Assembly: GCA_964016885.1 (NCBI GenBank) | Contig: OZ024742.1 | Location: forward strand, 338,706,001-338,770,000 | Length of the DNA stretch: 64,000 nucleotides | From: Eledone cirrhosa | Lineage: Eukaryota | Direction: 5' to 3' | Shown: piece by piece, positions 13,938 through 48,250 of the stretch | Position numbering within the stretch: position 1 is the stretch's first letter | Layout of the letters: every line of letters begins with the position of its first letter | Program-made: the position numbers and the translations under genes | The notes under the pieces: generated by a model | What the model was told of the DNA's origin: nothing | The model's input: only the letters and a program-made list of their open reading frames with translations | The model's database searches: none

Positions 13938-14944
13938 CGAAATCCGAGCGATTGATGTTAGGACTCGAAAAATACTAAACAACACCGGAAACTTCCACAT
14001 CAACAGTAACATAGATCGCCTCTACTTGAAACGTAACTTTGAAGGATACGCTTTTGAAATCCAAGAACAGGAAATCAACACGAAATACTTGATTCACAAA
14101 AGAGATAGGGGTGCAGGCAAAACACCTAGAATTAACATCGAAGATATCACCCATGTCTTAAGCAGCTGTGCAAAGATGTTATCGCGGTACTATCTTTCTA
14201 TCAGGCATGATGTAGTGGCCAAAACACTGTACTATGCAATCCGTAGAAAAGATAGCCCCGATAATAAACACATTAAAAACTATAGCAATGTGGAAGACAT
14301 ATACATAGTATGAAAGAGTACTGGTGGAATGTTCCAGTAAAAACCCCAATAAAATGCAAGCATAACAGACCAGATATAATGATATGGAACAGGGAAAAGA
14401 AAGTATGCACAGTAGTGGAAGTTAGCTGCCCAGAAGATGCCAATATAATATCAAAGATTATCGAAAAGGAGAATAGACTATGCAGAACTAATGATAAATC
14501 TACAGATACTCCTCCCTGATTATACCTTCAGATTTATACCTGTGATTATTGGGGTACTGGGATGTGTTAGTAACCGCCTCAATACAAATATTGAGAAGCT
14601 GGGCTTCACAGGAACAGAAAGAACACAACTAGTTAGGAAATTACAAGTACAATCCATTAATGGAACAGTAAAAATATTTAAAACATTCCAAAAATTCTGC
14701 ATCTAATAACTGCATATACACACGTACAGATACAAAGCGTATACACATGCACACATACAACTCAAAACATCCACATCCACACATACAATAACATTTATAC
14801 CTACACATGCATGCATGTAGACATGCATACATATCTACTTAGTTGATGTTGTGTAAATTCCAATGAGAGAGTCTTGTGTCTATGTTAGAAACCGACTCTC
14901 TCTCTTTATTGGTAAAAATTTGTGAAATTATAAAACCAGAAGAA
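13938..14944 (+). mobile_element. R4/Dong LINE 3' fragment (restriction-like endonuclease domain and 3'UTR), internally deleted
   Basis: FEIQEQEINTKY, RHDVVAK, HNRPDIMIW..VVEVSCP (PD..E motif). Ends CCAGAAGAA|(CATA)n. Confidence 0.9.
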
Positions 14945-15018
14945 CATACATACATACATACATACATACATACATACATACATACATACATACATACATA
15001 CATACATACATACATACA

Positions 15019-15548
15019 TGGTGGCTGCCAACTCGTTTTCGAGTACGGCCACTACTTTATATCCATGTAGGAGAACCCCTACCGATGCGCTGAATGAGTG
15101 TGACTTTTTAGTCCAGCCAGCGACTTGAAAACTCTGGTACAAACACTACACTTGTGACAGTTATTGACACATAGTGCTGGGCCCATGGTACCATGTGACG
15201 ACAAGTGCAGAGAGATCCCCAGATATAAAGCAATGCCTGTGCCGTGAAGCTTTTATAGTGAGCAAAGGCTCTGCACAAAGCCAGTCCCACTCTCTTAGCC
15301 AAGATGATATTTACCAAAAAGAATAACAAGTCAACATCATTGGATACCATCAGGGTTGCAGGTATTATATCAGAGTTTTCCTTCTAGAATTCTGCCTTGA
15401 CAAAGGCTAAGGGGTCATCTCTCCCGGTGATTTTGGATGGCCATTGACTCTTAAGAGCTCCTTTGCCCTTTGACAGGTTTTGTTTTTAGTCCTGCAGGAT
15501 GTCCAAAGCCACCCTCCTCACCAAGAAACCTTGGTGAGGAGGGTGACA
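15019..15548 (-). mobile_element. Non-autonomous RTE-related element, copy 2 (5'-truncated)
   Basis: Homology to 13123-13733. (CATA)n on both flanks. Confidence 0.85.
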
Positions 15549-46034: not shown

Positions 46035-46220
46035 AATAATAATAATAATAATAATAATAATAATAATAATAATAATAATAATAATAATAATAATTATTAT
46101 TGTTAATATATATATATATATATATATATATATATATATATATATATATATATATATATATTTTCTCCTGCAATGTCCATACTCGATAACGAGGGGGCAG
46201 CCATCATATATGTATGTATG

Positions 46221-48250
46221 TTCTTCTGGTTTTATAATTTGACAAATTTTTTCCCAATAGAGAGAGAGAGTCGGTTTCTAACATAGACACAAGACTCTCT
46301 CATTGGAATTTACACAACATCAACTAGGTAGATTTTGTATGCATGCCTGCATGTGTAGATATGGATGTTATTGTATGTGTGGATGTGTATATGCGTATGT
46401 TTTGAGTTGTATGTGTGCATGTGTATATGCTTTGTATCTGTACATGTGTATATGCAGTTATTAGATGCAACATGTTTGGAATGTTTTACATATTTTGAAC
46501 ACCATTATGGATTGTACTTGTAATTTCCTAACTAGTTGTGTTCTTTCTGTTCCTGTGAAGCCTAGCTTCTCATGATTTGTATTGAGGCAGTTACTAACAT
46601 ACCCCAGTGCCCCAATAATCACAGGCATAAATCTGAAGGTGTAATCAGGGTGGAGTGTCTGCAGGTTTCTTATCAGTTCTGCATAAATATTCTCCTTTTC
46701 GCTAATCTTTGATATTATATTGGCATCTTCTGGGCAGTTAACTTCCACTACAGTCCATGCTTTCTTCTCCCTGTCCCATATCATAATATCTGGTCTGTTA
46801 TGCCTGCATTTTATTGGGGTTTTTACTGGAACATTCCATATTATGTACATGGATGTCTTCCACATTGCTGTAGCTTTTAATGTGTTTATTGTCGGGGCCA
46901 TCTTTTTTACGAACTGCATTGTACAGTGTTTTGGCCACTACATCATGCCTCATAGGTAGATAGTACCGCGATGACATCTTTGGACAGCTGTTTATGACTT
47001 ATGTGATATCCTCGATGCTAGTTCTGCAGAGTTTGCACTTGTTATCACATCTAGGTGTTTTGCCTGCATCCCTATCTCTTTTGTGAATCAGGTATTTCGT
47101 GTTAATCTCCTGTTCTTGGATTGCAAAAGCGTATCCTTCAAAGTGGGAGCCAATATAGCGGTTGTTGGTCCAAGATAGACTACTTTCCTTATCTATATTT
47201 CTCTCACTCTGGAGCTTCCTGGCCACATATCCATGCATAATCTTTTGCTGATAAGCATGCAGTTTTTCATACATGGATTCACTGCGATACTGCTGAGCGA
47301 CTTCCCTGGGTGTGAGCTTTTGATTATCACACGGAATATCTCTCGAGGAGTTCCTTCTCAACTCTCATGATCTTATCTGTTTCATGCAGATAGACTTGCT
47401 CGAGAAACGGGCTCTTACGCTTTGAGGTTCGTAGATGTTGTCGGAGAGATATGATGCGACATTCAAATGTCTGGACTGATGTTAGGCCTCTGTCTCCCTG
47501 CTTACGTTTCAAGTAAAGTCGGTCTATGTCACTATTGATGTGGAAGTTTCCGGTGTTGTTTAGTATTTTTCGAGTTCCAACATCAACTGCTCGGATTTCG
47601 TCTATCGTCCAATGGAGTATTCCAACGTTGTTGTTAGGACAGGCACAGCAAACACATTGAGCCACTGTTTTGTTTTGCGCAGAGAGTTCCGATGAGCAGA
47701 TCTTTCTTAATCGGGTGTAGTATTCCCTGGTTACGCGTTCTTTATTATAGGATATGTTCTCATCTATCCCCAGGTATCTGTAGCAGTCCTCATCAGATAT
47801 CGGTGAAACAGTTAGACCATTGATGACAATGTTGCTAGATTGGTTTGTTGTTTTTCCATGTATGAGCATTTATCTTGGTCAAACTCCATTCCTATATCTT
47901 TTGAGAACGTTGTAACCAGGTCAAGATTTTTCTTCATTCCATCCATGTTCTTGGCATAGAGTTTCAGATCGTCCACAAAGAAATTATGGGTTAGGTTCGT
48001 ATTTCTGTCCTCCTGTGAGCCAATGATGTATCTCTCACATTTCTTGAGCAGAAAGGACAAGGGGTCTAATGACAAGATGAATAATATCACAGAGAGACTG
48101 TCCCCCTGCGATATTCTATTTTATCAGTGAAAATAGAGTAATCCCTCTCTGTCTTTAACCTTAGGATAGTATAGCCCAAGATGAAGACAGCTTCTCTATT
48201 GCTCTGATAATAATGTCTGGGACTTTAGCAAGTTGGAGGGCCTCTATCAT
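46221..48250 (-). mobile_element. R4/Dong LINE 3' half (RT C-terminus, CCHC, RLE, 3'UTR), degenerate
   Basis: FVDDLKLYAK, YRYLGI, IDRLYL, HG, AIQEQ, CKLC, HNRPDIMIWD. Same 3' end as 14944. Confidence 0.9.

What the first reader, a model, noticed from the sequence alone, without database searches (positions are those of the whole stretch)
14930..46260. R4/Dong 3' ends joined tail-to-tail to RTE-type 3' ends through a shared (TATG/CATA)n tract, three times
Seen: at 14944-15019, 35141-35165 and 46205-46221 the Dong terminus (..CCAGAAGAA) faces an RTE-type terminus (..GGCAGCCA(C/T)C) across (TATG)n. Every main-family Dong 3' end in the window is arranged this way. Established: R4/Dong elements can be microsatellite-specific. 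Inference: Dong targets (CATA)n in a fixed orientation and exploits the tails that RTE elements lay down, so one LINE builds the landing pad for another. The alternative is that both target the same tracts on opposite strands.
Basis: partly seen in the sequence, partly recalled or inferred. Interest (0 to 1): 0.72.

Follow-up and report, generated by a model that had tools for sequence, protein, structure and literature searches.

The report
Two retrotransposon clades share one microsatellite
Thousands of copies of two unrelated jumping genes in this probably octopus genome sit in the same CATA/TATG repeat facing opposite ways, and the repeat flanks both ends of both kinds, so it is likely a shared landing site that each cuts on its own strand, not a tail that one builds for the other.

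Summary
All 3 main-family Dong 3' ends in the window face an RTE-type end across (CATA/TATG)n, and a second Dong family gives a fourth case at 33673. Genome-wide, 954 of 6069 exact Dong 3' ends (15.7%) do so; the same-strand control gave 1.

The 'RTE tail as landing pad' reading is not supported:
- The tract flanks both ends of both elements.
- RTE1 ends often sit in (AT)n with no TATG.
- Tract interruptions are duplicated on both sides of RTE copies, as in a target-site duplication.
- Head-to-head junctions are as frequent per available RTE end as tail-to-tail ones (about 5% per 10,000 ends each).
- RTE1, the main partner, is usually less diverged than the Dong beside it (14 of 18 pairs, all RTE partners).

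Enrichment over random tracts is only about 1-4 fold, depending on the definition. The likely mechanism is two independent, strand-polarised insertion machineries sharing one microsatellite, with target duplication multiplying the sites. A (CATA)n target for Dong was not found in 5 paper searches; the known target is (TAA)n. This scan already reported the same system on other pieces of this genome. Verdict: new variant of a known kind.

The parts
6125..9113 (-). Dong1 5' half with the full-length 5' end, interrupted by other repeats; a short further piece lies at about 3870-4035; no 3' end found in the window
9114..9192 (.). interrupted (CATA)n tract at the 5' end of the full-length Dong1 start
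13101..13123 (.). tract at the 3' end of an RTE1 copy; no Dong across it
13124..13733 (-). full-length bipartite non-autonomous RTE element (RTE1, about 605 bp)
13736..13818 (.). (CATA)20 at the RTE1 5' end; about 118 bp of another repeat separate it from the Dong1 5' break
13937..14943 (+). 5'-truncated Dong1 with an internal deletion of about 360 bp (site 1)
14944..15019 (.). (CATA)18-19 shared tract, site 1
15020..15545 (-). 5'-truncated RTE1 (site 1)
15546..15624 (.). (CATA)19 tract at the 5' end of the site-1 RTE1
32942..32953 (.). (CATA)3 at the 5' break of Dong2
32954..33672 (+). 5'-truncated copy of a second Dong/R4 family (Dong2; about 44-47% amino-acid identity to Dong1)
33673..33684 (.).
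33685..33990 (-). 3' part of a third RTE-type short element (RTE3), lacking its last ~12 nt
34444..34528 (.). (TATG)21 at the 5' end of the site-2 RTE1
34538..35141 (+). full-length RTE1 (site 2): RTE-type 5' part plus a C-terminal C2H2-finger remnant and 3' UTR
35142..35164 (.). interrupted (TATG)n shared tract, site 2
35165..35228 (-). last ~64 bp of Dong1 (site 2)
35229..35958 (+). inverted segment of the Dong1 N-terminal region joined to the 64-bp end
35959..36014 (.). (TATG)13-14 closing the site-2 Dong insertion
36200..37281 (+). 3' part of an autonomous-type RTE (RTE2): C2H2 fingers and a microsatellite-rich 3' UTR
37282..37366 (.). (TATG)20 between two tandem RTE2 pieces
37367..38800 (+). 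5'-truncated RTE2 reverse-transcriptase fragment that starts at the tract
46165..46205 (+). RTE2-type terminus (site 3), preceded by (AAT)20(AT)28
46206..46220 (.). short (TATG)3 shared tract, site 3
46221..47880 (-). Dong1 3' part (end of RT, CCHC, RLE, 3' UTR); homology continues to about 48245; degraded

Best explanation
Two unrelated non-LTR retrotransposon clades, R4/Dong-like (RLE) and RTE (APE), sit in the same (CATA/TATG)n microsatellite in opposite fixed orientations, likely because each inserts there independently by nicking its own strand. Shown: Dong has (CATA)n at both ends; RTE has (TATG)n or (AT)n at both ends and never CATA; a second element in an occupied tract ends up tail-to-tail or head-to-head about equally often per available RTE end. 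Inferred: the Dong endonuclease would nick the TATG strand and duplicate about 11-15 nt. RTE would nick the CATA strand, prime through its terminal ..CCAT against an AT of the tract, and duplicate about 9-20 nt. Each insertion would turn one tract into two, slippage would re-lengthen them, and stacks would grow in either order. RTE1 likely came second at most junctions, and Dong likely came second beside the older RTE2b.
For: Orientation: 954 opposite-strand junctions against 1 same-strand Dong-3'/RTE1-5' match genome-wide; CATA next to 0 of 183 RTE1 flanks. Both sides: Dong 5' breaks and full-length starts are preceded by CATA; RTE 5' ends are preceded by TATG or AT. The tract is not an RTE tail: only 1 of 24 RTE1 copies in loci picked on the RTE1 end had a pure TATG start, and 15 of 24 had (AT)n. 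Tract interruptions recur on both flanks, e.g. L034 12 nt, L026 14 nt, L147 17 nt. Symmetry: 33 of 580 full-length Dong starts face a full-length RTE1 start (10,897 RTE1 starts), which is 5.2% per 10,000 RTE ends (CI 3.6-7.2) against at most 5.0% for 3'-3'. In samples an RTE lay across 9 of 30 Dong starts and 30 of 70 Dong ends (p=0.27). Ages: median divergence is 2.8% for Dong1, 1.8% for RTE1 and 4.1% for RTE2b; Dong is the more diverged in 14 of 18 pairs, p=0.02.
Against: Some excess over random tracts remains. On strict adjacency, 3.1% of all pure runs of 13 nt or more end in an RTE terminus (8558 of 275,079), against roughly 10-12% for Dong-adjacent tracts (my estimate from 26 of 56 fully printed rows and 51 of 70). 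The relaxed count is 28 of 70 against 11 of 49, p=0.05. One locus pair (L116/L117) carries a tract interruption on the Dong 5' flank but not on the RTE 5' flank, which suggests Dong came after RTE1 there. A search for true nesting gave no convincing case either way. The 5'-3' tract-type match for RTE1 is weak in the unbiased subset (p=0.04, n=42), because many flanks are compound. No biochemistry was done.
Confidence: 0.8

Rival explanations
1. One reading: RTE lays down (TATG)n tails and Dong preferentially inserts into them.
For: 15.7% of Dong ends face an RTE end, and strict adjacency is roughly 3-4 fold over pure runs. RTE elements do generate microsatellites in Lepidoptera (PMC2887409, abstract read). 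RTE2b is older than Dong1. L116/L117 suggests Dong came second.
Against: RTE carries the tract at its 5' end too, and often has none at its 3' end. 5'-5' junctions are as frequent as 3'-3' per RTE end. RTE1 is younger than Dong1 on average. Most Dong ends have no RTE across: 42 of 70 in the sample. On the loose definition, 7 of 49 random tracts (14%, CI 6-27%) match the Dong rate.
Confidence: 0.08
2. The reverse one-way dependence: RTE1 preferentially uses the pure tracts that flank Dong copies, duplicated and renewed at Dong insertion.
For: Dong is the more diverged in 14 of 18 pairs. RTE 5' flanks at junctions are mostly long pure TATG tracts.
Against: Most RTE ends have no Dong across: 6 of 30 RTE+(TATG)3 loci were flagged, and one more lay beyond the 230-bp search window. 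RTE also uses (AT)n. RTE2b is older than Dong1. A difference in family ages alone predicts this order.
Confidence: 0.08
3. The junction is one chimeric unit that moves together, by read-through or 3' transduction from a master copy.
For: Short middle tracts of (CATA)3CATG recur often.
Against: The 5' breaks of both partners are independent, and several family pairings occur (Dong1 with RTE1, RTE2, RTE2b and RTE3; Dong2 with RTE1 and RTE3). Middle tracts run from 0 to over 20 units with private interruptions. Divergence within pairs is uncorrelated (Spearman 0.14, n=18).
Confidence: 0.02

Closest known systems
Dong elements of the R4 clade (Dong of Bombyx mori, DongAg, snail DongBg, ostracod Dong1/2)
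   Same: One long RT-bearing ORF, then CCHC and an RLE-type PD..E..K motif; insertion into a microsatellite in a fixed orientation. An unnamed B. mori protein is among the homologs at 35% identity.
   Different: The target is (CATA)n. [quoted passage not shown] Copy number is above 6,000, and the tract is shared with an APE-type clade.
RTE-clade LINEs and bipartite non-autonomous RTE elements (Bov-A-like, RTESINE, WALLSI3)
   Same: A single APE-RT ORF (P0122), C-terminal C2H2 fingers, and short derivatives made of 5' and 3' parts (PMC5786205 passages). TSDs start with A and are 7-15 bp, and the 3' repeat influences site choice (PMC6007223 passages).
   Different: The flanking repeat is mainly a target on both sides, (AT)n or (ATGT)n with strict strand polarity, rather than a tail. 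The element's own terminal repeat appears to be only (CAT)1-3.
Microsatellite-specific APE elements (Waldo/Mino, Kibi, Koshi) and Togen (TG)n
   Same: Use of a multicopy microsatellite as a target (passages).
   Different: They belong to other clades. No case of two clades on opposite strands of one repeat appeared in the passages read.
Octopus RTE-2_OV and the O. bimaculoides RTE and Dong consensus elements (PMC9115989)
   Same: Octopus RTE with a microsatellite-rich 3' UTR; RTE more recently active than Dong in O. bimaculoides (passages).
   Different: No target site is described in that main text (0 occurrences of 'target site'). Sequence identity with the families here was not tested.

Membership tests
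R4/Dong clade | RT of the R2-group (RLE) type in one long ORF, without APE | tested here: met
   The 833-aa frame of a natural copy hits only RVT_1 in Pfam, and its only PDB hits are R2 proteins.
R4/Dong clade | C-terminal CCHC knuckle and restriction-like endonuclease motif | tested here: met
   CRLC..H..C and PD..E..K align with P0118 and P0002; the motif names rest on my own knowledge.
R4/Dong clade | RT phylogeny groups with named R4/Dong elements | tested here: inconclusive
   The homologs are unnamed; the B. mori hit (35%) is not labelled Dong; no tree was built.
R4/Dong clade | N-terminal Myb/SANT-like domain | not tested
   Described in PMC7998251; the N-terminus was not searched with profiles.
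Dong in the narrow sense | (TAA)n target | tested here: not met
   The flanks are (CATA)n at both ends.
RTE clade | Single ORF with APE and RT | tested here: met
   P0122 from junction locus L136 hits Exo_endo_phos and RVT_1; the frame runs off the fetched stretch.
RTE clade | RT phylogeny groups with named RTE elements | not tested
   No homolog search or tree was run for P0122; the assignment rests on domain layout and recalled motifs.
RTE clade | TSD of about 7-15 bp starting with A | tested here: met
   21 informative cases of 9-22 nt among 183 copies, most starting with AT; many lie in simple repeats, so the lengths are approximate.
RTE clade | 3' microsatellite tail encoded by the element | tested here: not met
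   For (TATG)n: the 3' flank is AT or TATG depending on the site. A short (CAT)n terminus is seen in RTE2.
Bipartite non-autonomous RTE | 5' and 3' parts match an autonomous RTE, with the interior deleted | tested here: inconclusive
   A fixed unit of about 600 bp with a sharp 5' start and a zinc-finger remnant; an autonomous partner with the same 5' part was not identified.
RTE or R4 with a 5' HDV-like ribozyme | HDV-like fold at the 5' end | tested here: inconclusive
   No Rfam ribozyme match; no dedicated fold test was done.

The most novel reading that the evidence does not exclude
A self-amplifying two-clade niche: RLE-type Dong families that switched from (TAA)n to (CATA)n, and RTE families that became microsatellite-specific on the opposite strand, renew and multiply each other's target. 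On this reading a large share of the long pure (CATA)n tracts of the genome (16 of 40 pure runs of 5 or more units in the random sample, from 6 loci) were made or maintained by insertion, and the modest excess of neighbours is real mutual facilitation.
Probability: 0.35. Interest if true: 0.6.

Novelty: new variant of a known kind. Interest (0 to 1): 0.36.

Why it matters
It gives a Dong/R4 lineage with a target repeat other than (TAA)n, useful for asking how RLE elements change specificity. It also gives an RTE lineage tied to AT/ATGT repeats with strict strand polarity, a natural test of the proposed role of 3' microhomology in RTE site choice. It explains alternating stacks of elements, and warns that microsatellites next to RTE ends can be targets rather than tails. 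The claim that one LINE builds the landing pad for another, which gave the finding its score, is not supported in its one-way form.

Tried and rejected
1) Ordering each junction by target-site duplications in short or interrupted middle tracts (40 loci): only one locus pair was informative.
2) A search for an RTE splitting a Dong body or the reverse: 1 candidate, not convincing.
3) Rfam scans for 5' ribozymes: nothing above a gathering score.
4) I first took the sequence at 9070-9113 for another LINE's 3' end; one search showed it is the Dong1 5' start.
5) The 'element X' seen upstream of Dong copies is the Dong2 3' end.
6) A chimeric, co-mobilised unit was rejected (see rivals).
7) The original Dong paper was not held, and Kojima and Fujiwara 2004 was seen only as a citation. 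Repbase entries could not be searched, so a prior description of a (CATA)n Dong is not excluded. No supplements were read.
8) An exact genome-wide count of strict-adjacency junctions was not obtained, so that ratio is an estimate.

Full report
Setting. The window is G000:C3:338706001-338770000 of a 3.0-Gb genome. A homolog of the Dong protein is named from Argonauta hians, and the repeat content recalls octopus genomes. The organism is therefore probably an octopod; this is an inference.

1. Observation. All three junctions exist at the stated coordinates, and these are the only three main-family Dong 3' ends in the window. A fourth junction, between a second Dong family and a third RTE-type element, lies at 33673-33684. 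Two other RTE ends in the window (13124 and 37281) face no Dong.

2. The elements. Dong1 is about 4.1 kb when full length. It has an RT whose only PDB hits are R2 proteins, then CCHC and an RLE-type motif. There are 6069 exact 3' ends and 580 exact full-length starts. RTE1 is a non-autonomous unit of about 605 bp, with 25,878 exact ends and 10,897 exact starts. A second terminus type (5511 exact ends) belongs to an APE-RT element and to a second short derivative, RTE2b.

3. Dong targets (CATA)n in a fixed orientation. CATA follows 68 of 70 sampled 3' ends, and TATG follows none. CATA precedes 29-30 of 30 full-length starts and most visible 5' breaks. The shortest 5' flanks are about 3 units, and a few interrupted flanks recur on both sides (L160, L116, L130). 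This suggests a duplication of 11-15 nt, read by eye.

4. The tract is not an RTE tail. In loci picked on the RTE1 end, 15 of 24 copies with both ends in view start with (AT)n and only 1 with pure TATG (raw flanks). 8558 RTE ends are followed by G(TATG)3, against 31,389 exact 25-mer ends. The 5' flanks are simple repeats of the same kind. Interruptions are duplicated on both sides in 21 of 183 copies, over 9-22 nt. CATA never flanks RTE1 on its sense strand (0 of 183). This fits published RTE behaviour: TSDs of 7-15 bp starting with A, and 3' microhomology (PMC6007223, passages read).

5. Frequency and enrichment. 954 of 6069 Dong ends have an exact RTE 12-mer within 200 bp on the opposite strand. 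The same-strand control gave 1. The background was 60 evenly spaced 10-kb stretches from contigs C1-C7, holding 49 merged tracts of 3 or more units. With the same exact test 7 of 49 were positive (14%, CI 6-27%); one RTE end is counted from two neighbouring tracts. With mismatches allowed the counts were 28 of 70 Dong ends against 11 of 49 tracts (p=0.05). Those 70 come from the first 52 Mb of C1, where the exact rate is 27 of 100, above the genome mean. The 40 loci L151-190 left out junction loci fetched earlier and some close neighbours, so the sample is biased in both directions. On strict adjacency the genome has 275,079 pure runs of 13 nt or more (1,045,996 minus 770,917), and 3.1% of them end in an RTE terminus. 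For Dong-adjacent tracts my estimate is 10-12% (26 of 56 fully printed rows; 51 of 70). Enrichment is therefore about 1-4 fold, depending on the definition. Against tracts of only 2 units it is larger (15 of 271).

6. Symmetry. If Dong sought RTE tails, 3'-3' junctions should outnumber 5'-5' junctions. Genome-wide, 33 of 580 full-length Dong starts face a full-length RTE1 start. That is 5.2% per 10,000 RTE1 starts (CI 3.6-7.2), against 5.0% per 10,000 RTE ends for 3'-3'. The 3'-3' figure is an upper bound, because the numerator used a 12-mer and the denominator 25-mers. In samples an RTE lay across 9 of 30 Dong starts and 30 of 70 Dong ends (p=0.27). Dong-Dong and RTE-RTE tandems through the same tract are also common.

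7. Order. Median divergence from the family majority is 2.8% for Dong1 (n=101), 1.8% for RTE1 (n=163), 4.1% for RTE2b (n=43), 1.8% for the RTE2 ORF end and 1.8% for Dong2. Nearest-neighbour distances rank the same way. Both partners could be measured in 18 of the 40 junction loci, and Dong was the more diverged in 14 (p=0.02). Subfamily structure may inflate some Dong values. The order at single sites was mostly unresolved: one locus pair points to Dong second, and the nesting search was uninformative. The activity periods overlap, so both orders are likely.

8. Mechanism. Shown: opposite polarity, tracts on both sides, RTE target duplications, and symmetry. Inferred from established target-primed reverse transcription: an element's sense strand reads as the strand it does not nick. 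Dong would therefore nick the TATG strand. RTE would nick the CATA strand, with its terminal CAT pairing to the exposed end. Each event would duplicate the target, and slippage would re-expand it. In the random sample 16 of 40 pure runs of 5 or more units lie within 25 bp of these elements, but they come from only 6 loci. A weak, symmetric form of niche building is therefore plausible. The one-way form is not supported.

9. Known work. Dong targets are given as (TAA)n (PMC3812793 and PMC7998251, passages). RTE-derived microsatellites are known (PMC2887409, abstract). Dong-R4 and RTE are both recently active in Octopus vulgaris (PMC13282606, part 1 of 3 read). PMC9115989 (passages) finds RTE but not Dong activity in O. 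bimaculoides and gives no target site. Five library searches returned no listing describing a (CATA)n Dong or this shared polarity. None of them used CATA as a term, and Repbase and most subscription papers were out of reach. Earlier notes of this scan on other pieces of this genome reach the same reading. I looked at them after forming mine, and they are not independent evidence.

10. Verdict. The feature is real. New variant of a known kind; interest 0.36.

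Noticed in passing
window 35165-36014: A Dong insertion made of the last ~64 bp plus an inverted ~730-bp piece of the N-terminal region, closed by the target tract. It resembles a twin-priming inversion with a large deletion, which I recall mainly from L1.
   Followed up: partly
window 4040-6130: Two ~530-bp direct repeats with ~1 kb between them interrupt the Dong1 copy; LTR-like element, only observed.
   Followed up: no
window 7797-7985 and 8205-8390: Two copies of an abundant SINE-like repeat inserted in the Dong1 N-terminal region, with AATAAT-type repeats on both sides; more copies cluster at 49400-50500.
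   Followed up: no
window 35405-35560: The Dong1 N-terminal coding region holds a 78-bp tandem repeat.
   Followed up: no
window 44063-45913: A 616-aa low-complexity frame on the minus strand with a weak MBD hit (E=0.0056, below the cut-off).
   Followed up: no
window 40234-43580: A broken L1/Tx1-like LINE (endonuclease, RT, zf-RVT) on the minus strand.
   Followed up: no
window 21220-22425 and 28124-30444: Frames with GIY-YIG hits, probably Penelope-like elements.
   Followed up: no
L175 (G000:C1:43075360-43083360): The last ~30 bp of Dong plus a short tract is repeated head-to-tail at least four times.
   Followed up: no
loci L001-L290: Pure runs beside element ends look bimodal: mostly 8-19 nt, with a second group at about 52-87 nt.
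   Followed up: partly
window 34538-34630 and 9060-9113: Sharp, shared 5' starts of RTE1 and Dong1 hint at self-cleaving ribozymes or fixed promoters; Rfam gave no match.
   Followed up: partly
window 1-938: A 28-bp tandem array of 33.5 copies.
   Followed up: no
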